A DNA stretch of 64,000 nucleotides from Eledone cirrhosa (lineage: Eukaryota), in NCBI GenBank assembly GCA_964016885.1, contig OZ024743.1, positions 234,670,001-234,734,000 on the forward strand, read 5' to 3'. The notes under the pieces were generated by a model, which was not told the DNA's origin, searched no databases, and was given only the letters and a program-made list of their open reading frames with translations. Made by a program: the position numbers and the translations under genes. Within the stretch, counting starts at the first letter, position 1, and each line of letters starts with the position of its first letter. This document shows positions 12,701-59,919 of this stretch, in pieces.

Positions 12701-12976
12701 GTATGATGTTAAAAGACTGTTTAGTTTTATTTTAAATTTCTTTTTCTTGTATTTACTGGCTTTTGGGGTTTTTTTTTTTTTTTTTATTATGGTGTTGGAA
12801 AAAAAATAATGTGATACATCATACAGAAAAATGGAAAAGGGTGGAGCAAAATATTAATATCAAGTTGGATGCTTGTTTTGTTTTGTTTTGTTTTTTTCAA
12901 CCATTTTATTAACCGACTAAATCTTTTTTGCTATTGATACATTTACTATTGTTAAGGTTACACTGTTGTTATCAAT

Positions 12977-25900: not shown

Positions 25901-27959
25901 CAGGCATCAAATGATGCACCTGAATTAGACTACTTGGATACCCACATCATCATCTGGCCTGCAGATTTCTTATCAGATATCATTTTCCTCCAATGACCTT
26001 TCTTTATTTGTATTGTAGTATGGATGATATGTCATCATCGTCATTGTTTTAATGTCAGCTTTCCCTGCTATCAAGGGTTGGAAGGGTCTACATAAACCAA
26101 GTCAATGCTGAAGTGGTGGCTACTGATCTTCCAGACAAGCCAGGGATCTGTCATCTCTCTTATGCGTGGTCTCATGTTCTACCGAATGCACAGGGGAGAT
26201 TGTCAAGTCTTTTACACAACTGAGGGTCTTTCCAACTCTTTGGAATATTAATCTATAGTAACTCCATCTTTGATTTGATTAACTTTCAAATGCTGCAGTA
26301 GACTTGCCCAATTGTACAATCACAGCTGCATTGTCATGGTCACAAACATTAAAAATAGTGGTGTTGGTGATGAAGGCTATGATTTACTCAAAACAGCTTT
26401 TTTTTATGAACCTGCTGATATCTACTACTATATGCTAAGTAACAGGGGAGGGAAAATGTGCATAGTTCACATTTCCATCACAATCTTCCGTTACTCACCA
26501 TCATCATTATTATCTCTATCACCACCTCTTACCTTGACATTGAATTTGACAGCTGTCAATCTCTAGTTCAGGCATCGCATCCCTATTGTAATCCTGTAAC
26601 ATTGTTCATGTTGCTTCCCTACTGAACTCCCAACTCGCCATTCTCATTCTTCCTCCTACCAAACCATCACTCTGTTTACCCCTTCATACTCAATTATACT
26701 CTCTCCTCTTTCAACTCATCATCACTCTCTTAGTTCCATTTTCCTTGGTGTGCAGAGATCTTAGTCTGGCACTGAACAAGACAACTTCTCTAGAATTGTT
26801 GGTACTACAAAATACTCCCAGTACACTCAGTAAAGAAATTGATGATTGGATTGAGATAACATAGAGTAGAAAGGAATCTTTGGTCTTGTCGAGTACATGG
26901 CAACCTCTCTAGCGCTCTAGTTTTGATAAAATAGACCTGCTCCACTCTGTAAAATGGTTGGTGTTATGAAGGACATCTAACTGTAGAAACCATGCCTGAA
27001 TTTGTAACATATGAGTGTGGCATACTGTCCCAACCCATTTATGAGGACACTAACTCTAAATAAATACTGACTCAGGTTGTGGCAACCCACCCTAGCATAG
27101 AAAATGGACATATAGTAGTGATAATGATGAGTCAATCCTAAATACTTGAACCTTCTACTTGCAAGTTGCTATGTTAAATTTCTTTTTTCATATTGCAAAC
27201 ACATCCTTATGAAACCATTCATTTCCAGAGAAAATAAAATCAACAATGTGCATTGTCAAAATACCAACCAAGTTCCTTTTTGGATCATGCCATAGACATA
27301 TAGTATTGTCCTAAATACTTAGTAATACCTCTCTCAGCTTAGTACTTGAATGAACTACTTGGACTATGACCAAAGATCATCATTCATTTCTTTAGCTTCC
27401 AAACCTTCAATTTTGGATGTAGACCAACATGGAGCTTAAGGAATGCCCATCTCTTTACTCACTGTTTAACCTTGCAAAACTGCTCAAGTGTAATCAAACC
27501 TCTGCTCTCACCAATTCATAACAGATATAGTTAACATTACTAACTACATGTTAGTCTGTTTTACGTAGATCACATATGAAATAAGACGAGCCTCCCCTTA
27601 GTCTTATTTTGTGTTTTACAGTAATCACTCATTTTGTTGATGTAATTTTTTGACCAGAATAGGTCACATATTTATATACGTATTGATTTTTCATATTTGG
27701 TATTTCTATGCTTAGCACCAATTACTTCTTTTACTTGATCATGTCAACAATGAATAAGAATACTTACTCCGATTCATGTAGTTCAACAGTTTCTTGTGTT
27801 ACTTCTCTCCATTAATTCACATGATTCCAAATTTAGCAGAAGTAGGATCTTCATTCTCCTGTTTCCATATTTAGCTAGTGACTGTTTCCTTTTGATTTTG
27901 ACTATGTGGTCATAGTTTTTCTTCTTTTCCACTCCTCATATGCATTTAGTTTCTTACAG

Positions 27960-36854: not shown

Positions 36855-37214
36855 ATGCCCCAATGTAAGGCGTTTGGCTGTTCAAGTCACGATGGCCGAC
36901 TTCCTCGTCATATCAGGCTACACTGCTTCCCCAAAGATCGCAGCGTGTGTAGGATTTGGGCACGGAACATGGGTATCGATTCCTACCTGATTGAGAACTT
37001 TCTCGACATGGCCTGTTCGGATAACCAGAATATACGGCGCCGGTTTCGAATCTGTACTCTGCATTTTGAACTTGACTGTTTCGAACAAAACATAGAGTTA
37101 ATGGCTAACCCACGTATCTTGCTGAAACCGAATGCCATACCAACATTATTCCAGAAGAGTAATGCTTTCACAGCGAAATGGTATACCAAGCTGAAACTAA
37201 GCTGGCCAACTGAC
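36855..37214 (+). CDS. THAP zinc-finger (C2CH) first coding exon
   Basis: MPQC.AFGC..LHCFPKD..W..RICTLHF..CF..LLKPNAIPTLF is a complete THAP signature with AVPTIF box; donor gac|gtaagg, 360 nt, phase 0; unspliced ORF stops at 37253. Confidence 0.88.
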
Positions 37215-44671: not shown

Positions 44672-44938
44672 GACCCTCAGTTCCTACCTCACAATTTCCC
44701 TCCCCCCCCCCCCCCCCCACCCCCATACACCACCATAGTCTATTCGACCAATCAAACCTAGCATGCCATTTCCACTGCTGCTGCTACTACCTGCCTAACT
44801 AACTCTCTCCTCCTCTGGCGCATCCCAACACACCCTGCCATTACCCCACCACCACTGTTCTTCTAGCCCTCAATTTTCCCACCATTATGGATGGATGAGC
44901 TGGGAATACACAAGCAACTCTGAATCAATAGATGAAAT

Positions 44939-47900
44939 ATGAATCTGCGAGCTACCAAGCACCCACGTGAAGCGCCAACCCAGAGACCCTCCCCTACGAG
45001 TGTCGACAAATGCCCAAAACTCCGAGTTGGTACCATCAATGTAGGCTCAATGAAAGGAAGAGCAGGAGAAATCGTAGAAATGCTAGAGCGAAAGGAAGTT
45101 GATGTATGCTGTGTGCAAGAGACTAGATGGAGAGGAGGGTCTGCTAGAGTCCTTGTAGGAAAAAGCCAGTGCTACAAATTTTTCTGGGTGGGAAATGACG
45201 ATGGGATGGGTGGTGTAGGTATACTATTAGCTGACAAGTGGGTAGATAAAGTAATCTCAGTGTACAGGGTAAATGCAAGAATCATTAAACTCAGACTAGT
45301 CCTGAATAAGACAATTACCACAATAATATCAGCTTACGCACCCCAATCGGGGCTGCCAGACGAACTTAAGGATAGGTTTTACGAGTCCCTAATACACACT
45401 ACTGCTCTAACAGACGACAAGGACTTCCTAATCATTGCAGGAGATTTTAACGGACACGTAGGTAAACACTGCGACGGCTTCAATAGAGTACATGGAGGCG
45501 GCACAAGGAATGAGGAAGGATTCAGACTTCTAGAATTCTGCGACGCCAATGACATGTCGATATGTAACACAAACTTTAAAAAACCCGACAACCACCTGAT
45601 CACCTATAGATCAGGGGAGCACTCTAGTCAGTTAAATTTTATCCTCATCAGAGGACGTGACAGATGGACGGTCGTAAACACAAAAGCCTTCCCTAGTGAG
45701 GAATGTACATCCCAACATAGCTTAGTTGTCAGCGACCTCACGGTCAGAACTAGACGAGCCCTGAAACAGAGGCCAACCTGGAGAAGAAAGATCTGGAAGC
45801 TGAAAGTCCCCTCAACCAGTAACAGATTTAAAGATATTTTACTCAACGCCTACGACAGTAAAGAAGAACAGATAGAGACATTTAACGTAGAAGAGAACTG
45901 GGAGTTCCTAAAAAATAACTTACTAGAGGCGACGGATGAGGTTTGTGGCTGGAGTAAGACCTCAAGCAGGAGGAGAGTGACTTGGTGGTGGAACAATAAG
46001 GTAGATGAAGCAGTCAAGGCCAAGAGACAGGCATGGAAAGAATGGAAGAACAGGGGGAGCAGGGTACATTACATAGAGACCAAGAGGGAAGCTAGGCGAC
46101 AAGTATACTTAGCTAGGAGGGAAGCAGAGGATAGAAAATTCAAGCATGTTTTACAACGTGAGGACCAGAAACAGGAGGTATTCAAGATTGCGAGGCAGTG
46201 TGTCAGAGATAGTTGTGATGTCATTGGAGAGAAGTGTATCCGGAATGATAAAGGTGAGCTTGCCCTCACAAGTGCTGAGAAGAAAGATGCATGGAAGAGT
46301 CATTATGATAGATTACTAAATGAGGAGAATGCATGGGAAGAAGAGACCCTACCCCACGTAGACCCTATACAGGGACCAGCAGTACAAGTCAGTGGCAGCG
46401 TAGTAAGTAAGGCAATCAGAGATATGAAGATAGGGAAGGCAACCGGTCCATCGGGTATAGCTGCCGAGATGCTGAAGGCATCTGGGTCTGTAGGTCACAC
46501 TATAACCACACGTATCGTTAACCAGGTAATACTAGAGGGGGCCATACCAAAAGATTGGTGCAGTAGCATCATTGTCAACTGCTACAAAGGTAAAGGCGAT
46601 GCACTAGATAGAGGAAACTATAGAGGTATAAAGTTGATGGACCAGGTCATGAAAGTAACAGAAAGAGTTATAGCACAGCTGATTAGGGACCGGGTGAATA
46701 TAGACGAGATGCAATTTGGGTTTGTACCAGGGAAAGGCACCACTGATGCCCTCTTCCTTGTGAGGCAATTACAGGAAAAGTACCTAGCTAAAAGTAAGCC
46801 ACTCTACTTGGCATTTGTCGACCTTGAGAAAGCCTTTGACAGAGTTCCACGTGCAGTAATCTGGTGGGCTCTTAGAAAACTAGGAGTAGATGAATGGCTT
46901 GTGAAAGCGGTACAAGCCATGTATAGGGGAGCAGTCAGCAAAGTTAGGATTGGCAATGAGTATAGCGAGGAATTTAGCGTACAGGTTGGGGTCCACCAGG
47001 GCTCTGTTCTTAGCCCTCTCCTGTTCATCATAGTCCTGCAGGCAATAACGGAGGAGTTTAAGACCGGATGCCCATGGGAACTCCTGTATGCTGATGACCT
47101 CGCACTCATAGCTGAATCTATGGTAGAACTAGAGAATAAATTCCAAACCTGGAAGCAGGGACGAGAGAGAAAGGGCCTCAAAGTCAACATGACAAAGACT
47201 AAGGTCCTTATAAGTAGACGAGAAAACAGAACCCAGATCCCCTCAGGGAAATGGCCTTGCTCAGTATGTAGGAAAGGTGTAGGTAGGAACTCCATTCTCT
47301 GCCCCAAATGCAAACAATGGGTACACAAGAGATGTAGCGGGATCTCAGGAAGCTTAATTAAGAATGTAGGATTCACATGCAGCAGCTGTGCTGAAACAAC
47401 AAGCAAACAGCCACAGGAAACAAGTACCACCAATCTCTGGGAGGGCCCTGTAGAAACAGTAGACAGCTTCTGCTACCTAGGTGACCGAATTAGCAACGGA
47501 GGTGGGTGCTCAGAAAGTACAATAACTAGGGTAAGAACGGGATGGAAGAAGTTTAGGGAACTACTACCACTGCTAGCTGCAAAAGGCTTCTCCCTCAGAA
47601 TAAAAGGCAGACTGTATGATGCGTGTATCCGAACAGCGATGTTGCATGGTAGTGAGACCTGGGCGCTGAAGGTGGAAGACTTACGTAGATTAGAGAGAAA
47701 CGAAGCCTGCATGCTCCGATGGATGTGTAACAGTAATATACGTGAACGACAAAGCATAAAGGAATTGAGAGAGAGACTGAGCATAAGAGGAATCAAATGC
47801 TGCGTGCAGGAGAGGCGGTTACGCTGGTATGGACATGTGATGCGTATGAAGGATGACAGCTGCATAAAAAGGTGCAGAGCACTAGAAGTTGATGGAAACC

Positions 47901-48049
47901 GCGGAGTGGGGAGACCCAAGATGACTTGGGATGAGGTGATAAAAGCCGACCTTACCCAACTACACCTCTCAAAGTCAATGACACACGACCGTGACTTCTG
48001 GCGTCACGCAGTAATACAGGGTACCCGACCTCCCATGGGTACATGCTGA
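44939..48049 (+). CDS. RTE LINE protein: APE endonuclease + reverse transcriptase + PHD-like finger
   Basis: GTINV, VQETRW, SAYAP, GDFNGH (EN); NYRGIKL, QFGF, DLEKAFD, QGSVLSP, YADD (RT); C4HC3 at 47258-47389. Confidence 0.97.
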   Translation: MNLRATKHPREAPTQRPSPTSVDKCPKLRVGTINVGSMKGRAGEIVEMLERKEVDVCCVQETRWRGGSARVLVGKSQCYKFFWVGNDDGMGGVGILLADKWVDKVISVYRVNARIIKLRLVLNKTITTIISAYAPQSGLPDELKDRFYESLIHTTALTDDKDFLIIAGDFNGHVGKHCDGFNRVHGGGTRNEEGFRLLEFCDANDMSICNTNFKKPDNHLITYRSGEHSSQLNFILIRGRDRWTVVNTKAFPSEECTSQHSLVVSDLTVRTRRALKQRPTWRRKIWKLKVPSTSNRFKDILLNAYDSKEEQIETFNVEENWEFLKNNLLEATDEVCGWSKTSSRRRVTWWWNNKVDEAVKAKRQAWKEWKNRGSRVHYIETKREARRQVYLARREAEDRKFKHVLQREDQKQEVFKIARQCVRDSCDVIGEKCIRNDKGELALTSAEKKDAWKSHYDRLLNEENAWEEETLPHVDPIQGPAVQVSGSVVSKAIRDMKIGKATGPSGIAAEMLKASGSVGHTITTRIVNQVILEGAIPKDWCSSIIVNCYKGKGDALDRGNYRGIKLMDQVMKVTERVIAQLIRDRVNIDEMQFGFVPGKGTTDALFLVRQLQEKYLAKSKPLYLAFVDLEKAFDRVPRAVIWWALRKLGVDEWLVKAVQAMYRGAVSKVRIGNEYSEEFSVQVGVHQGSVLSPLLFIIVLQAITEEFKTGCPWELLYADDLALIAESMVELENKFQTWKQGRERKGLKVNMTKTKVLISRRENRTQIPSGKWPCSVCRKGVGRNSILCPKCKQWVHKRCSGISGSLIKNVGFTCSSCAETTSKQPQETSTTNLWEGPVETVDSFCYLGDRISNGGGCSESTITRVRTGWKKFRELLPLLAAKGFSLRIKGRLYDACIRTAMLHGSETWALKVEDLRRLERNEACMLRWMCNSNIRERQSIKELRERLSIRGIKCCVQERRLRWYGHVMRMKDDSCIKRCRALEVDGNRGVGRPKMTWDEVIKADLTQLHLSKSMTHDRDFWRHAVIQGTRPPMGTC

Positions 48050-49518
48050 AGCATATAAACAATATGCCCCCACTCCCCCCACCGCAAGGTGGTCGTGGAG
48101 GTGCCACGGCAAAAAAGCACCCAGCCCACACTGTAAAGTGGACGTGTAGGCGCCACGAAAAAGCACCCAGCACTCACTGTAAATGAGGTTGGTGTTAGGA
48201 AGGGCATCCAGCTGTAGAAATCAAGCCAGATCAGTTCCTGTATGAGCAAGGCATGGTCAGCCGACCAGACACTGCCCACAATAGGACAACCCGTCTAACC
48301 CATGCTAGCGTGGAAGAACGGACGTAAAACGATGATGATGATGAATTACCTACTGAAAGTATTAACAATTAACAAACAGGAAGGTATGTAAGATGGGGGT
48401 GGCAAATTTTACACTCTTGTTTAGGTGGTGCATCTTAGCTGCACCCTACAGACATGATGGTGAAAGCCATCACCATCCACTTACATTGGCATTTCCACCT
48501 CACAAGGCTCCTTCCTTGGATGGGATGCATTCCTCTCAATTTTGCAGAGGAAATGAGCATTCTGGGGAGCAGGGTCATCCAAAGGTCTTGAGAGCAGCTG
48601 GTCAAAGCCAGCCTGTGAGTTGGTTATCTGCCACTCATCTGTGTTGCAAGCAAAGATGATCAGATTTGTAATTAAGAAATGGGTTATCCCCTGGCATCTA
48701 TTATTACTAAAGTCGAAGTTAACAGGATCCAATGTTGACAGGAATCCTGACATGTCATGGCTTCTTCTGTTGTTCAAGGTTGCCTACCAAGGGAACTCAC
48801 TTGCACTGTGGCAACAAGTGAGCTACTATGGTCTGAACTTGTCAACCAAGAGTTTACAATGACCTTTGTATAACGCGCGCACAGAGGCCAAGGCGCAAGG
48901 ACACTGATGCAGGTGCACTCATCTTCAGACAGTGTGCTGGTTGAAGAGGGTACTGAATTGAGTTGAGTGCCGTTGTTTGGTAGTAAAGCAAACCGGAAGC
49001 AGGCAAGACATTGTTGAAAGATTCAGTCTTCTTGCAGGTTGAACTGTATTCAATGTCATTGCTCTTGTGTTAATATCCTGCATAGTGAGCCATTGTCAAT
49101 CCAAGGGGCCAGAGCAGACACAAGTTCCCAGTCCAAACTGTTGCTAGCCTCTATTGTGTGATAGAGCTGAGAGTTCAACTAACATATAGTCTAGCTGCTT
49201 GGGCTGAGACACTAAATAACAAATATAGTCTGTCTGATAGACCTCCACCGTGAGATAAAGCTGACACCTCAAATAACAGATATAGTCTCTGATAGACTTC
49301 CACGCAGTTTCCATCTAAACATATTTCATTCACAGGGTTTCGATCAATCTAAGACTAGAAGTCATTTACACTGGGTGCCAGAGATGAAATCCATGTACGT
49401 GTACATAAGATGCAATTGTTTTTTGTACTGAATACCGAAGTAGAGTTTTAATATTTATTTTATTAATGCTAAATACTGAGTCTTGTTACTCTGGAGTTTC
49501 GCCCGTGATAAACAGTAA

Positions 49519-49550
<32 letters not shown>

Positions 49551-50039
49551 GAGGCCAGTAGCTAACATATTGTGAGTTTCCAGATCCTAAAATGTTAAAC
49601 TTTGACTACTTTTAATTATATTGAATTTACCGTCTGTGCGCGTACATGAATATACAATTTTATTTTAGATCATTAAGAGTACGTGTATATATACGTGTCT
49701 GTATATATAGATGTATATACAATGTGTATGTGTTATGCATATAGATATGTGCGTGTGTGTTTGTATGTTTTCCTTTAGAAAACCATGGTTTAAGTAAGGT
49801 ACTCAATAGATCAGGTCGAGGGAAATTTGTATTTAAAATATAAGTGACTTCTACAAGACTGTTTCATTCTGTGCTGAAGGCCCGGGTGTACCTCATTATT
49901 TATACAGAGTTAGTCGGTCCTGTTATAAACAATCTAGCTTTTAATGCAGATAAGATTTTTTTACATAATTATTTTATTAAGCTGACGAAAGAAGAAAAGT
50001 GCAAACTAGTAGCAGTAAATAACCGTTTCCTTGTATCTA

Positions 50040-50600
50040 GTAGGTAGATTATTGATAGCAGCAGACGTGAAATGTTTATATATCGCTACCGTAACAACAT
50101 GCTTTGGTTTTGTGATAAATCATCGGACTATATACGTGTTTACTTGGAAGAAGCACTATTTTAATTGGTAGACAACATAGAACTTGCTACTTTTACGTCA
50201 TCAATTTGTGTAGTAAACGTTATACGAACATTAGGAATACTACTTATGTTCAGGCTTGTTATCACGATCGGCTTTCTATAACAATCTGATGTCGGCAAAT
50301 ATCGCATCAGTCGTAAGCAACGCAGCTAGCCTTCAGCCATTCCTTTTGTTTCCTGCGGTGAATCTGGTTATTTGTATTGGAGTATATTCAGTTGGTATCT
50401 TCTTTTCTTAGGTCTGCTGTGGAATGTTTCAACCGACGCACTCATTCTCGCGGCGCATTGTTTCGCTATCTGTTAACTTAGTCTATTATCACCCACTATG
50501 TCATAATACTAACTCTTGTTTTCGGACTATATCACACATCTATCTTATCACTCCGCCTGACAATTCGCACAAATTGAACTAGTTCTCAACTATTTACACG
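50040..50600 (+). promoter_or_regulatory. CpG-enriched promoter-like island upstream of the DUF3504 exon
   Basis: X-box-like GCTACCGTAACAAC (50085-50098), CRE-like TTACGTCA (50193-50200), many CpGs. Confidence 0.45.
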
Positions 50601-51103
50601 TGTTTATAATCCCGTTATTTTTCTTTTTAATACATAGATATATATTTGTTTGTATCTTTTTGAGTATGCTTAGTATAGTATCAATTATTATTTGTTGTGA
50701 TTTGAATGAATGTTATAACAATTAAGCAACGTACTACTACTGCTACTGTTATCACATGAATAACAAGTTTAGATATCAAGGCACCAATGACTACTTTGCC
50801 CAGTTCGGTGTTAGTAATGATTTTAAAGCTATGTATTGACTGCATTTATCATCTGACATAGTTTTTGTTATTGCATACATGCTATAAGGATTCCCATCTC
50901 CTTTAAAACCAGGCGGTTGAATAATGTAAATAATGCCACGTCTCTTCGGCTTAGACTTGTCTGTTAACTCGGCTATAAAATGCTTATTTTCTTTTTAAAT
51001 ACATCGTAAAGAATAACAAACGTATGAAGATATTGTTTTAAATGATATATCTTTAGTGTTACGATTTCTTAATTTGTTTAATATTTTACTTGATTCATTT
51101 ACT

Positions 51104-52198
51104 ATGATGGCAACTCAAGAGACACAATGTGAAAGTGCCGCCAATATTGAGGCTCATTCTACAAAGCGCGCCGAAGTCAGTGCCTGCGAGAAATTTGGCG
51201 AATATATATTTTCCAAAGGAGAAAAATTGCGACTCCACCAGTTGTTGTCACGAATTTCTCTTGGTGATATGGAGGCCAAACATCGCTTAAAAATTTATCT
51301 TTGTAGTTTTTTCCCCGATTTACGTAAAGACGACGGTACTTGGTATAAACATGCCGGTCTACGAGGCATTCGTTACGGCCTTTATCGTTTCATACTCAAG
51401 AGAGGTATTGATATATTAAATGATCCTTATTTTATAGAGGCTAACAGAGTGTGGCAGAAACATTCCTTTAGTCTACAGCAAAAGTTCTCAGCTGTCGCGA
51501 ATGTCAAATCCACACTAAGCCTAGCTGATTTACAAAAAGCCTACAGTTGGTGTAACAGTGATTTAAATAACCCAAACAAACTCCAGAAGCGTGTCTTTAT
51601 GGACATCGTTTTGCTTTTTGGTCGCAACGGTTATAAATGCCTCTCGCAATTAACAAAGCGTCATTTTGCTGTTAATACGAATCAGAAGTCCGGTTTGCAA
51701 TGTATAATTCTCACAGAAAATATTGTCGACGATGGTGATAAATCTTTAACAGAATTGAGTAATACAAGTTGCAGAATGATACACGAAGTTCCGAACGAAG
51801 CATTGTGCCCTGTAAAAATATTCTTGAACTATTTGTCAAGATTGCACCCACAGAGCGATAAGTTCTTTTGTCAACCCCGTTTTGGAGATGTGACAAATTC
51901 TCCCACCTGGTACACTCTGCAACCACATGGTGGCAAGAATATTGCTAACTTTATGACAGAAATTTCTTCCAGAGCGCACCTCTCACATACATACACTAAC
52001 CAATGTCTTCGTGCCACGCTCAACAATCTCATTGTCTCGGATAAATTAGATTTGAAAAGCATACAGAAAGTAATCACTTTTCGGTTACCTAGGCGAAAAT
52101 CGGACAGTGGCTTTTCAGAGAAACCACCTATTGATGCGAGGCAGCAACACTTGAAGAGATTGATCTCAGTTGATTCTTTACACTCAGGGATGTTTGAG
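51104..52198 (+). CDS. Crypton-derived DUF3504 / tyrosine-recombinase-fold protein exon (KCTD1/ZMYM/QRICH1-type domain)
   Basis: Motifs LRKDDGTWY..LRGIRYGL.RF, P.KLQ..VF..I.L.FGRNG, CPVK.F..YLSRL.P..DKFF.QP, WY..QPHG...I.NFM..IS..A.LS..YTNQCLRAT; ATG 51104; donor gag|gttagt, 1095 nt, phase 0; unspliced stop at 52231. Confidence 0.85.
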
Positions 52199-52795
52199 GT
52201 TAGTTCAATTTTCTGTCTTTCATGTAAATAAAGCTTTTAGTTCAGACCAAAACTTAACAGGAGATAGTTTTGCTTTCATTTCTCAGCAATAATGTAATTT
52301 ATTGATATTTTTCTAACGCTATGACACTGACGTTTTCTCTCTAGTTAAAACAAAAATAGAAAGAGCATTTGTCTGAGTTTTAAGAGTGATGAATTCTGCC
52401 GGATTTAGTTTTGTCATGCAAGTCTGTTGAATTTATCCATATAGGGCTGAAGTGTGGACAAGTAATTTTCTACAGTGATTAAGTCATCTATACAACTATG
52501 GCCTAAAGAACTGGGAGACTATTCAATGATGACAATGAAAAGAAATATTTCCTATTCTGATGCTTTACTTAAAAAATTGCATAATGTTTATCATCATTGT
52601 TGTGTCTTCTTTCCATGCTGGCATGATTTCTACGATTGGATACCTTTCCTAATAACGCCCATTTTACAGAGTGCATTTTCATGACACCAACAGCCAACAG
52701 TAGCAAGCTCGTAATTAATATGCTTCTTGCAACTCCCCCCCCCCCCCACTTAGCTTCTGTCATGGGGGGGGGGGGTATGTCCATGACTTTTTTTT

Positions 52796-53000
52796 TTAAC
52801 CTTTTAGCATATACTTTACTCTATATATACTATTATATTTTCACGGTAAAGGCTTTACCTCACATAATATCGAGTCTATGAGATTTTGATATTATTTATT
52901 TTGAAAACAATACCTTAACATAAGTATGACCAGCTGGTTTGAACAGAAAGAGGTGAAAGAATTCTGGCTGGATATGGCTGGTTTAAATGCTAAAGAGTTA
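52796..53000. mobile_element. piggyBac-like MITE
   Basis: ttaaccttttagcat ... aaatgctaaagagtta. Confidence 0.85.
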
Positions 53001-54061
53001 TGTCGTTACAGACTCGTAAGATTAGAGGCGTTAATATTCCAGTTAAATAATTGACTACAGGAAAAAGACCTGCAGGGAGGGAATTCCAAGGGCCCAATTT
53101 CTGGAAAGAAAAGACTGGTTGCAGTAATTTGTGTAGGATCAGAAGGGTGGTGGGTTAGGGTGCAAGTAGATTGTGAGTGTTTGGGTGGCACAGCTCTGCA
53201 AGAGAGGGCATTTCATAACTGAAGAGACAGCATATTTTGGGGGGGGGGGGGGGGGATTCTGTGACTTTGTACCGTCATTTCATTTCCAACATCATACACC
53301 ACGACAGAGAAAAAAATATAATTCCATGCCGGCTTTACCCTTGACACCCAAATGCCAAAATCAATCCACCCATCGGTGGTCTATTAGGCAACTCTTTAAC
53401 CTACTTCATAGTATCTCGAATAGTTATACGACACATTAACAGCCAACAATTTCAAGAGAAGGTTCATTCAGTATATGAACTCCTTCATATCTAGGCACAG
53501 GGAAAACTCCACCTTTTTCATGTAATCCCAGTACTATAATAATTAAAATCTATTTTGGGATTGAGTTTCTTTTCCTTTTTGTAAATTCAAACTCCATATA
53601 ATATATAATAAATGTGTGTGTATTCATCATTATTTTTTCATTTTACATCCACTTTTTTCATGCTCGCATAGATTGGCCCAAGACTTGTGATAGGTTTTCT
53701 ACAGCTCAATGATAACATATCTTATTCTAAGTATAATATATTAACCACTAAATGTTTGATGAACCAATACACTGCAGGTTGTATTTTTTATGAGGAACAA
53801 ACAATGTCACCACTCGCTTTTTTACATATGGTGTCCTGTTGATATAAATTTGTGGCAACTGACACACACACGCATGCATACATACATACATACATACATA
53901 TTCCTTAATGTTTCTCTTCTACCAGATTCACTCATAAGGGTATAGTAGACAATTGCTCAAAGTACTAAACAGTGAGACTGAACTCAAAACCCATAGATCT
54001 ATAGCAAACTTCTTATCCACACAGTAATGCCTGTGCATATATATATATATATATAAAGGAC

Positions 54062-55004
54062 AGATCCTGAACACTATAGATCTTTCCTGCAATCAGACCT
54101 GGACACAATGCAGCAATGAATCATGGACTGGCAACTCAACTGGCTGTGGACAAGTGTACCACCATGCATTTTGGGAGGAAAAACCTAGCGTCCACGTACT
54201 CCCTCCACAACACTAACTAATATCAAGAAGTCTTCTTGTGAACTTGACTTGGGCATGGGCATTACTGTCAGCAGTGATTTGTGTTGGGCAAAGTACATCT
54301 CTAAAATTGTCAAGTAGGTCGCGGGAGTCTTAGCATCACTCAGCAAGACCTTTCTCAGCCACTTTCCAGCTATCTATTTAAAGCTGTATATAGCTATGCT
54401 GTGGCCACACTTAGAATTTGCATCGCCAGTCTGGAACCCCTATCTTGCTCAGAACATTGATCTCCTGGAAACTGTTCAGAGACTTGCAACCAAGCGAATA
54501 TCCTCCATCAGGCATCTACCATACTCTGAACACCTTGCTTCCTTGCGCATGGATTCATTGAAGCTCCGACGTCTGACAACTGACTTGGTAAACACCCACA
54601 AAATTATTAACCATCTTGCCAACAACAACTCTGAGCACCTTTTTGAATTCCATGTGTCTAACACACATGGGCATGCCTACACAGTCAGAAAACAGCACAG
54701 CTCCCATGACTTTTGGAAACATTTTTTCATGTTCAGAGTTGCTGAAGCATGGAACAAACTACCTGCATCAGTTGTTAGCTGCCGAGACACTGCATCTTTT
54801 AAAACCCCCATGCTTCTTGAAATTTACCAACCCTACACGTGATATCCCCCCTCCATACACACGCACACATGTATATCATGACTCGTACTGTTCACTTTCC
54901 TGACATTTGTACACTATTCTATGTACTATACTACATGCACTTTTGATGAGTTGTAGTGCACCTGAGCACTGTACTCAATAATTTCATTATTATTATTATT
55001 ATTA
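54062..55004 (+). mobile_element. 5'-truncated CR1-clade LINE
   Basis: PHLEFASPVWNPY..IDLLETVQRLATKRI..LPYSEHL..L..RR..DL and FF.FRV..AWNKLP; (ATT)n tail. Confidence 0.88.
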
Positions 55005-59225: not shown

Positions 59226-59809
59226 GCCAATCAGCAGTGAGCGTCTGCGTCATATGATTGTGTCTGTGCTGCTAACTCAGACAAACATCTCTGTCTGCGC
59301 CATCTCTCATTTATATTTTTAACGAAATCTGTTCCTAATCATTATCGATTATCATACGATACAGGACACGTTGTCTGACTATAAAAGTACTGATTTTCTT
59401 TCGGGCACCGTCATCTTCGTGATACGATGGTTAAACGGTGCTGTTACGGTACATGTAACATTCATAATAGATTTCTCGAGAGGCTGTCGGGCAGTGTGCA
59501 GTTTATACCTTTTCCGAGGCCAATCAGTAGTGAGCTCCTGCGTCATCTGATTGTGTCTGTGCTGCTAACTCAGACAAACATCTCTGCCTACGCCATCTCT
59601 CATTTATATTTTAATGAAATCTATTCTTAATCATTATCGTTTATCATAAGATACAAGACACGTTGTCTGACTATAAAAGTACTGATTTTCTTTTGGGCAC
59701 CGTCATCTTTGTGACACGATGGTTAAACGGTGCTGTTACGGTACATGTAACACTGACAATAGATTTCCCGAGAGGTTGGCGGGCGGCGTGCAGTTTATAC
59801 CTTTTCCGA
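59226..59809 (+). repeat. ~292-bp tandem duplication of promoter plus THAP 5' end
   Basis: Units start at gccaatcag (59226 and 59519); ATGs at 59427 and 59719. Confidence 0.92.
59427..59518 (+). pseudogene. Truncated duplicate of the THAP exon 5' end
   Basis: MVKRCCYGTCN..NRF.ERL.G.VQFIPFP, then runs into the second unit's promoter sequence. Confidence 0.75.
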
Positions 59810-59919
59810 AACCCAAACAAAACCTGGAAAAGTGTCTGCGATGGATTCTGTGTTGTGGTAGACCCTACTATCAGTTTAACGTCAATCGTGTCAGCAGAGC
59901 AACATATATTTGTACTAAG
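59719..59919 (+). CDS. Second THAP zinc-finger first coding exon, split before the His ligand
   Basis: MVKRCCYGTC..FIPFPKP..RW..CGR..TYICTK; donor aag|gtataa, 201 nt, phase 0; expected HF continuation not found in the window. Confidence 0.8.

What the first reader, a model, noticed from the sequence alone, without database searches (positions are those of the whole stretch)
51104..52198. Domesticated, catalytically dead Crypton tyrosine recombinase
Seen: 365 uninterrupted codons. The first Arg (FGRNG) and second Arg are retained, but HxxR reads QCLR, the usual TGH box reads ITFR, and no Tyr occurs after YTN, so the nucleophile is missing. Known: KCTD1, ZMYM2-4, QRICH1 and KIAA1958 carry domesticated Crypton domains. 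Inference: an independent or lineage-specific domestication acting as a DNA/chromatin-binding module.
Basis: partly seen in the sequence, partly recalled or inferred. Interest (0 to 1): 0.7.

Follow-up and report, generated by a model that had tools for sequence, protein, structure and literature searches.

The report
Dead recombinase as swappable BTB head
This octopus-type exon encodes a transposon recombinase that has lost three of its four core catalytic residues, and it is one of about thirty alternative front ends, mostly transposon DNA-binding domains, predicted to be spliced onto one shared BTB protein body, so that one gene likely makes many different gene regulators.

Summary
The ORF is real: a single-copy, intronless Crypton-derived DUF3504 domain with a tyrosine-recombinase fold. 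The Arg of FGRNG is not the catalytic one; only R303 of R-H-R-Y survives.

It is not a stand-alone gene. It ends at a phase-0 splice donor. RefSeq models of Octopus sinensis and O. bimaculoides (86-87% identical) join the orthologous exon at this point to a shared small exon and a constant BTB region 60 kb downstream.

It is one of about 30 same-strand 5' exons (THAP, CENP-B, psq, FLYWCH, Brinker, three DUF3504), most in their own CpG-rich island; 19 match annotated isoform starts. The layout also appears in cuttlefish. The three DUF3504 heads come from different Crypton lineages (AU p = 3e-93). All 8 intronless relatives tested lie upstream of such a BTB.

It works like Drosophila mod(mdg4)/lola in mirror image and converges on vertebrate KCTD1. 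It is not a WOC/ZMYM orthologue.

No RNA of this genome and no dN/dS could be tested. This scan noted the same locus before from adjacent DNA (e1-8668573). Seven paper searches found no description of the layout.

The parts
51104..52198 (+). Variable 5' coding exon: Crypton-derived DUF3504 / tyrosine-recombinase fold (core-binding domain about aa 18-133, catalytic-type domain about aa 140-311); R->N175, E->K178, H->Q300, R303 kept, no GH box or Tyr
   Evidence: orthologues P0011 (XP_029634399.1) and P0060 (XP_014782191.1), 86.6% and 85.5% identical
52199..52204 (+). Phase-0 splice donor GTTAGT. Its predicted partners lie beyond the window's end: a shared 32-codon exon at G000:C4:234758190-234758285, then three constant BTB-region exons at C4:234781861-234784811
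50100..52100 (+). CpG-rich island (observed/expected about 1.0-1.2; flanks 0.2-0.4) covering the upstream 1-1.5 kb and the exon; likely this exon's own promoter (inferred)
5742..5791 (+). Shared 'collector' exon (phase-1 acceptor, phase-0 donor) used by the more upstream heads
36855..37214 (+). Neighbouring variable exon: THAP domain, ATG to phase-0 donor; matches isoform X13 start (74%)
59719..59919 (+). Neighbouring variable exon: half-THAP ending at a phase-0 donor (its last zinc ligand would come from the shared exon); a truncated duplicate lies at 59427. Eighteen more heads follow beyond the window's end (C4:234734343-234780495)

Best explanation
The ORF is a catalytically dead, Crypton-derived recombinase domain that is predicted to serve as one of about thirty alternative first exons of a single cephalopod BTB gene, likely giving that isoform a DNA- or chromatin-binding head. 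Shown: recombinase fold, loss of R/E/H/Y, single copy, phase-0 donor, a same-strand array of transposase-type DNA-binding exons, and constant BTB exons downstream. Annotated in relatives: the splice to the shared exon and BTB (931 aa). Inferred: each head has its own CpG-island promoter and splices to the next downstream collector or constant exon, whose acceptor phase matches. Inferred: the head clamps DNA without cutting it, and isoforms pair through the common BTB. Inferred: the array grew by repeated capture of transposon 5' ends, at least three separate Crypton lineages at this locus.
For: Junction: P0011 and P0060 run from the orthologous exon into the shared exon and BTB at the codon of our donor. 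Isoform labels of LOC106877732 run to X36. 13 isoform starts map on C4 and 6 on contig C581, at 74-100% identity. Strand: 25 of 25 profile hits to DNA-binding exons in 404 kb are on the + strand. CpG: 19 of 21 heads have o/e > 0.8 in the 800 bp upstream, against 4 of 72 background windows (Mann-Whitney p 3e-11). Paralogues: 8 of 8 intronless DUF3504 exons tested lie upstream of a same-type BTB exon pair on the same strand. Logan contigs of at most 4.6 kb and 3.2 kb encode whole DUF3504+BTB proteins (P0099, P0098) whose G000 counterparts span about 17 and 9 kb, so they are probably spliced transcripts. Age: Sepia P0081 has two of the THAP heads (92% and 99% identical), the shared exon and the BTB. 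Conservation: 108 of 116 and 151 of 172 residues identical in the two folded domains, 41 of 54 in the tail. Fold: top matches are QRICH1 in Zincore on DNA (Z 13.2, rmsd 16.7, 240 aligned) and Cre (Z 12.9, rmsd 5.9, 257 aligned). Tree: one clade of the three local heads is rejected, p-AU 2.8e-93.
Against: No RNA of this genome was available. The junction for this exon rests on RefSeq predicted models, whose read support I did not see. Short database forms read through the donor into the intron (P0061 387 aa, P0062/P0063 374 aa). Acceptor-like AG sites exist within 200 bp upstream of many heads, ours included (crude score 14, versus 14-15 for true acceptors), so 'first exon' is not proved. CpG richness is only a proxy for a promoter. 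DNA binding is untested, and the closest structure, QRICH1, acts in a complex with zinc-finger proteins. The 24 outside rows of the tree were picked after a first FastTree run and are unnamed, so some may themselves be domesticated mollusc exons.
Confidence: 0.78

Rival explanations
1. Same gene model, but the dead recombinase head is a protein-docking or DNA-shape module, like QRICH1 in Zincore, rather than a sequence-specific DNA binder.
For: Best sequence-profile and fold match is QRICH1 in 'Zincore (SEPHS1:QRICH1) binding to ZFP91 on DNA'. The phosphate-contacting Arg and His are gone, and the distant orthologue P0002 has also lost R303.
Against: Nearly all sibling heads are known DNA-binding domains. 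The core-binding domain is the best-conserved part (108 of 116) and the exon is basic (pI 9.4). Identity to QRICH1 is only 16%.
Confidence: 0.25
2. The heads are mutually exclusive internal exons (or trans-spliced units, as in mod(mdg4)) fed by one shared upstream leader, not separate promoters.
For: Acceptor-like sites lie upstream of many ATGs. The front of the array lies on another contig in this assembly.
Against: Each head has its own ATG and CpG island while constant exons are mostly CpG-poor (shared exon 0.20, last exon 0.24; the first constant exon is an exception at 1.03). Nested collector exons with matching phases fit 'splice to the next acceptor downstream'. All heads are on one strand.
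Confidence: 0.12
3. A stand-alone single-exon domesticated gene that reads through to the stop at 52229; the BTB fusion is an annotation artefact or a minor product.
For: The frame stays open 10 codons past the donor. Read-through proteins exist in UniRef and Logan.
Against: Two RefSeq annotations give the fusion at the same codon. 8 of 8 relatives tested sit before a BTB. Short Logan contigs encode fused paralogues.
Confidence: 0.06
4. A decayed mobile Crypton copy lying neutrally in an intron.
For: Intronless ORF in a transposon-rich intron, 3 kb from a near-intact LINE.
Against: One DNA match in the genome. Open frame and 86% identity in other octopuses, with a 49% relative. No stops in any of the 8 family exons.
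Confidence: 0.02

Closest known systems
Drosophila mod(mdg4) and lola (PMC11426971, passages read)
   Same: One BTB gene with 20-30 isoforms, each carrying a different DNA-binding domain.
   Different: Mirror image: here the variable part is 5' and N-terminal and the BTB constant part 3'. Heads come from many unrelated transposase families, not mostly FLYWCH or C2H2. No TTK FxLRWN motif. No sign that trans-splicing is needed.
Vertebrate KCTD1 long isoform (PMC3212892, passages read)
   Same: A Crypton inserted upstream of a BTB gene became an alternative N-terminal DUF3504 exon.
   Different: One capture and two isoforms, versus about 30 heads. KCTD1 keeps the His, ours does not. Ours hits PF00651 only; that KCTD BTBs are the T1 type PF02214 is recalled. 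The paper places the KCTD1 capture in early vertebrates, so this is convergence.
KIAA1958 (PMC3212892, passages read)
   Same: Alternative, intronless, highly diverged DUF3504 exons in one gene.
   Different: Two isoforms, no BTB reported in the passages read, no other transposase domains.
QRICH1 / ZMYM2-4 / WOC
   Same: Dead DUF3504 domain; best fold match.
   Different: Their DUF3504 is C-terminal. The G000 WOC-like gene is intron-split on C26 (48-63% identical to an insect ZMYM protein, ours 22%).
Octopus THAP-BTB and CENPB-BTB proteins in Mukherjee & Moroz 2023 (PMC10027918, passages read)
   Same: Noted that most Octopus THAP and CENPB proteins carry a BTB.
   Different: Treated BTB as a transposon source and counted genes. 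The main text has 0 hits for isoform, promoter and Crypton. Supplements not read.
Clustered protocadherins / UGT1A (recalled, no call)
   Same: Many variable first exons with their own promoters spliced to constant exons.
   Different: There the variable exons are tandem duplicates of one host exon; here they are unrelated captured transposon domains.

Membership tests
Active CryptonA transposon | DUF3504 / tyrosine-recombinase domain | tested here: met
   Pfam; fold
Active CryptonA transposon | R-H-R-Y catalytic tetrad (PMC3212892, PMC13465315) | tested here: not met
   1 of 4 kept (R303)
Active CryptonA transposon | Multiple similar copies | tested here: not met
   1 DNA match (the tool gives lower bounds); read depth equal to flanks; nearest paralogue 41%
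Active CryptonA transposon | Terminal repeats | tested here: inconclusive
   Only short or microsatellite repeats in 49000-54300; Crypton ends are variable
Domesticated DUF3504 genes (Kojima & Jurka 2011) | DUF3504 without the catalytic Tyr | tested here: met
Domesticated DUF3504 genes (Kojima & Jurka 2011) | Single-copy, conserved orthologue in a conserved gene context | tested here: met
Domesticated DUF3504 genes (Kojima & Jurka 2011) | Expressed | tested here: inconclusive
   RefSeq isoform models only
Domesticated DUF3504 genes (Kojima & Jurka 2011) | Purifying selection by dN/dS | not testable with these tools
   Only proteins of the orthologues were available
WOC/ZMYM/QRICH1 orthologue | Closest genomic match to WOC/ZMYM, C-terminal DUF3504 | tested here: not met
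   C26 exons 48-63% versus ours 22% to P0090; ours is N-terminal
KCTD1 orthologue | N-terminal DUF3504 plus C-terminal BTB | tested here: met
   P0011
KCTD1 orthologue | KCTD15-like T1 BTB (type recalled) | tested here: not met
   Only PF00651 listed at E <= 0.05; structure neighbours are ZBTB, Kelch and mollusc BTBs
KCTD1 orthologue | DUF3504 groups with KCTD1 in a tree | not tested
mod(mdg4)/lola type | One BTB gene, tens of isoforms with different DNA-binding domains | tested here: met
mod(mdg4)/lola type | Constant N-terminal BTB, variable C-terminus | tested here: not met
   Order is reversed
mod(mdg4)/lola type | TTK FxLRWN motif | tested here: not met
   Absent from the BTB start as read by eye
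mod(mdg4)/lola type | Trans-splicing | not testable with these tools
   No RNA reads
Protocadherin-type promoter-choice cluster (recalled) | Own promoter for each variable exon | tested here: inconclusive
   CpG proxy positive for 19 of 21; start sites not mapped
Protocadherin-type promoter-choice cluster (recalled) | Variable exons are duplicates of one ancestral exon | tested here: not met
   At least six unrelated domain families; even the three DUF3504 heads are not one clade

The most novel reading that the evidence does not exclude
Coleoid BTB genes are a long-lived transposon-capture platform. Any DNA transposon 5' end landing upstream with its promoter and a phase-matched donor becomes a new head, and cell-specific promoter choice plus BTB heterodimers give hundreds of two-headed regulators from one locus, a transcription-factor analogue of the protocadherin code. 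One sister head (C21) keeps R-H-R-Y in both octopod and decapod lineages and could be a live host recombinase tethered to a BTB.
Probability: 0.2. Interest if true: 0.92.

Novelty: new variant of a known kind. Interest (0 to 1): 0.76.

Why it matters
It recasts much of the reported octopus 'expansion' of THAP and CENP-B factors as isoforms of a few BTB genes. It shows transposase capture repeated about thirty times at one locus, by promoter-side exons and in mirror image to mod(mdg4)/lola. It adds several independent Crypton domestications and a convergent KCTD1-like fusion. Eight DUF3504 heads ranging from a full tetrad to one residue, on similar BTB bodies, make the open question of what dead DUF3504 domains do directly testable.

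Tried and rejected
Expression: no RNA holder was listed. The three runs laid were genomic, of one sample, and may be the assembly's source; no evidence either way.

The first homologue search at near length gave 1 hit. The alignment search for longer proteins covered only 913-2605 aa and gave 2 hits, so it could not have found KCTD1, KIAA1958 or QRICH1.

The crude acceptor scan did not separate heads from true acceptors. My donor picker chose wrong sites for at least two CENP-B heads (83571, 99570; checked), so I made no phase statistic from it.

240 kb upstream on C4 held only two heads or head parts; six more isoform starts were on contig C581. Starts of isoforms X5 and X18 and the THAP part of X4/X7 were not found in the G000 stretches fetched.

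Several CpG peaks (about 9-11 kb, 85 kb, 105 kb) have no assigned head. No terminal repeats were found.

The abalone claim of earlier notes was not tested; the Atlas gave only a lead, a mollusc BTB cluster named 'isoform X16' with zf-Tnp_2 in 52% of members. No complex prediction was run. The Cosby 2021 paper was not held; the Zincore paper did not appear.

Full report
Coordinates outside 1-64000 are 'window-extended': G000:C4 position = 234670000 + the number given.

OBSERVATION. Window 51104-52198 (+) translates to 365 residues without a stop. It hits Pfam DUF3504 at 36 bits, cut-off 29.7. An AlphaFold2 model from a 12-sequence alignment (mean pLDDT 73.9, pTM 0.53) matches tyrosine recombinases over both lobes. 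Foldseek ranks QRICH1 in Zincore first (E 2.6e-6), then Cre. The wide search gives QRICH1 Z 13.2 (rmsd 16.7, 240 aligned), Cre Z 12.9 (5.9, 257), XerA Z 12.5 (13.3, 227). The window is C4:234670001-234734000 of a 3.0 Gb genome; homologues name octopuses. The DNA has one match in the genome. Three DNA runs of one sample cover it at flank depth with no variants listed in the ORF.

ACTIVE SITE. I aligned 152 domains from the best 150 of 13,682 profile hits with the cephalopod exons. 64 of 152 keep H..R...GH...Y. In these the column of N175 is Arg in 62, that of K178 is Glu in 61, and that of R174 is Arg in 47. H300 is Gln, R303 is kept, and no GH box or Tyr follows (last Tyr Y297). The same changes stand in O. 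sinensis and O. bimaculoides; the distant orthologue P0002 (49%) has also lost R303.

GENE STRUCTURE. The ORF starts at ATG and ends at GAG|GTTAGT, a phase-0 donor. Neighbouring DNA holds a series of ATG-to-donor exons. Pfam on 109 candidate ORFs plus controls names THAP, CENP-B_N/Tc5, psq, DUF3504 and weak zinc-finger hits. Local profiles over 404 kb gave 25 hits, 25 on the + strand. Of these, 21 lie between -626 and 111861, one of them a truncated duplicate; with two zinc-finger exons this gives 22 heads on C4: CENP-B -566, 74150, 83571, 99570; THAP 36855, 59719, 64343, 71853, 73370, 75272, 95615, 97574, 100312, 101012, 106557; DUF3504 51104, 69002, 107319; psq 86338, 104337; zinc-finger types 109399, 110139. 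Contig C581 adds 7, so about 30 in all. Downstream lie three constant exons (111861, 112488-112794, 113738-114811); the first opens with a phase-0 acceptor and no ATG, and the second and third encode a BTB.

A search with the last constant exon returned 30 proteins, the named ones all from cephalopods. P0011 (O. sinensis XP_029634399.1) and P0060 (O. bimaculoides XP_014782191.1), both 931 aa, begin with the orthologue of our exon (86.6% and 85.5%). They leave it at the codon of our donor for a 32-codon shared exon (G000 88190-88285) and then the constant region. Isoform labels run to X36; I saw 15 of the 32 members of the largest cluster. Nineteen isoform starts map to G000 heads, 13 on C4 and 6 on C581; two others and part of a third did not map. 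The heads fall in nested tiers. Each splices to the next collector downstream (C581:41789, window 5742, 88190, 111861), and the donor phase matches where checked: phase 1 before 5742, phase 0 after. These are predicted models; that RefSeq variants rest on RNA-seq is recalled, not checked.

PROMOTER SIGNAL. CpG o/e in the 800 bp upstream exceeds 0.8 for 19 of 21 heads (median 1.06) and for 4 of 72 background windows (median 0.33), p 3e-11. I left out the truncated duplicate, the psq exon at 104337 (which has an acceptor) and an unclassified exon at 94481. Around our exon the island runs from about 49.6 to 52.1 kb, with 0.2-0.4 on either side. This fits a promoter per head (inference). Against it, acceptor-like sites occur upstream of many ATGs, and the first constant exon is also CpG-rich (1.03).

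FAMILY AND AGE. The protein search finds 8 intronless DUF3504 exons, all with open frames. All 8 lie upstream of a same-type BTB exon pair on the same strand: three here, two on C11, one each on C10, C21 and C23. A ninth intronless DUF3504 ORF (C11:4.12 Mb) was not tested for a BTB. Logan proteins P0099 (926 aa, 24 contigs, longest 4,568 bp) and P0098 (813 aa, 4 contigs, longest 3,212 bp) carry DUF3504 and BTB. Their G000 counterparts span about 17 and 9 kb, so these contigs are probably spliced transcripts. Sepia pharaonis P0081 holds two THAP heads at 92% and 99% identity plus the shared exon and BTB, so the array predates the octopod-decapod split. The genome's WOC/ZMYM-like gene is separate and intron-split on C26.

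TREE. IQ-TREE, LG+G4, 42 of 165 rows: 8 G000 exons, 10 near orthologues, and 24 others chosen from a FastTree run. Our exon groups with its orthologues and the C11:676k head (100/100). The 69002 head groups with C21 and Cryptons that keep the GH...Y box (100/100); the 107319 head groups with other intact Cryptons (100/99) (motifs checked). AU tests reject one clade for all 18 cephalopod rows (p 1.3e-26) and for the three local heads with orthologues (p 2.8e-93). The groups were defined by locus, but the outside rows were chosen after a first tree and are unnamed, and the simpler non-mixture model was used.

MECHANISM. Shown: dead recombinase exon, donor, array, constant BTB. Annotated in relatives: the splice. 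Inferred: a promoter in the island drives a transcript that splices from 52198 over 36 kb to the shared exon and on to the BTB exons, skipping the intervening heads. The 930-aa product would bind DNA or chromatin through the retained two-lobed clamp (core-binding lobe 108 of 116 identical, pI 9.4) without cutting, and would pair with other isoforms through BTB (general knowledge of BTB domains, untested here). The main functional rival is a QRICH1-like adaptor role.

COMPARISON. It works like mod(mdg4)/lola (PMC11426971, 12 of 37 places read) but is not a member: reversed order, no TTK motif. It parallels KCTD1 isoform b and KIAA1958 (PMC3212892, 12 of 21 places read) but is not their orthologue on the features tested. 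PMC13465315 (12 of 23 places) confirms the tetrad criterion and has no hit for cephalopods or BTB. PMC10027918 (12 of 15 places and 2 of 2) saw Octopus THAP/CENPB with BTB but not the isoform layout. PMC12062965 (7 of 7 places) covers transposase-domain capture by F-box genes, with no octopus hit. Searches found no description of this layout; the library lacks most subscription papers and I read no supplements.

EARLIER SCAN NOTES. My reading was on record before I saw them. They describe the same locus and sister loci and are not independent evidence. One led me to look for the array's front on another contig.

VERDICT. New variant of a known kind; interest 0.76.

Noticed in passing
L003:1318-2499 (G000:C21:7741528): This sister DUF3504 head keeps R-G-x-E, H-x-x-R and the downstream Tyr (second His is Gln). 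The same pattern stands in the BTB-fused P0099, which clusters with a Sepia protein. It may be a catalytically competent recombinase on a BTB.
   Followed up: partly
window 11747-12706 (+): 319-codon open frame with internal repeats, CpG-rich, ending in a stop inside an intron of the BTB gene; no Pfam hit above cut-off and no match among session proteins.
   Followed up: partly
window 44936-48049 (+): Near-intact LINE ORF (1037 aa) with endonuclease, reverse transcriptase and an inserted PHD finger; fragments at 27950 and 39166 and many elsewhere.
   Followed up: no
window 52808-53041: Short element with contig depth up to about 1.2 million against 5 for the flanks; a very high-copy repeat just behind the exon.
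   Followed up: no
window 59427-59919: Truncated duplicate of a half-THAP head directly before the intact one; several half-THAP heads end at the third zinc ligand and are completed by the shared exon.
   Followed up: partly
L015-L018 (window-extended 126614-163199): A second copy of a BTB exon, then Brinker/Tc5, FLYWCH and Tc1-type HTH exons: probably heads of tandem sister BTB genes (FLYWCH matches LOC106877745).
   Followed up: partly
L084:574-2424 (G000:C11:4.12 Mb): A further intronless 617-codon DUF3504 ORF, dead, of another type; gene context not examined.
   Followed up: no
L012:481-657 (window-extended 94481): Short, very basic ATG-to-phase-0-donor exon without a Pfam hit; probably another head.
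   Followed up: no
G000:C581:77467-77761: Frameshifted relative (62-83% identical) of the CENP-B head of isoform X10.
   Followed up: no
L020 (window-extended -14706 to -11317): Broken LTR-retrotransposon-like ORFs (reverse transcriptase and integrase, recognised by eye) upstream of the window.
   Followed up: no
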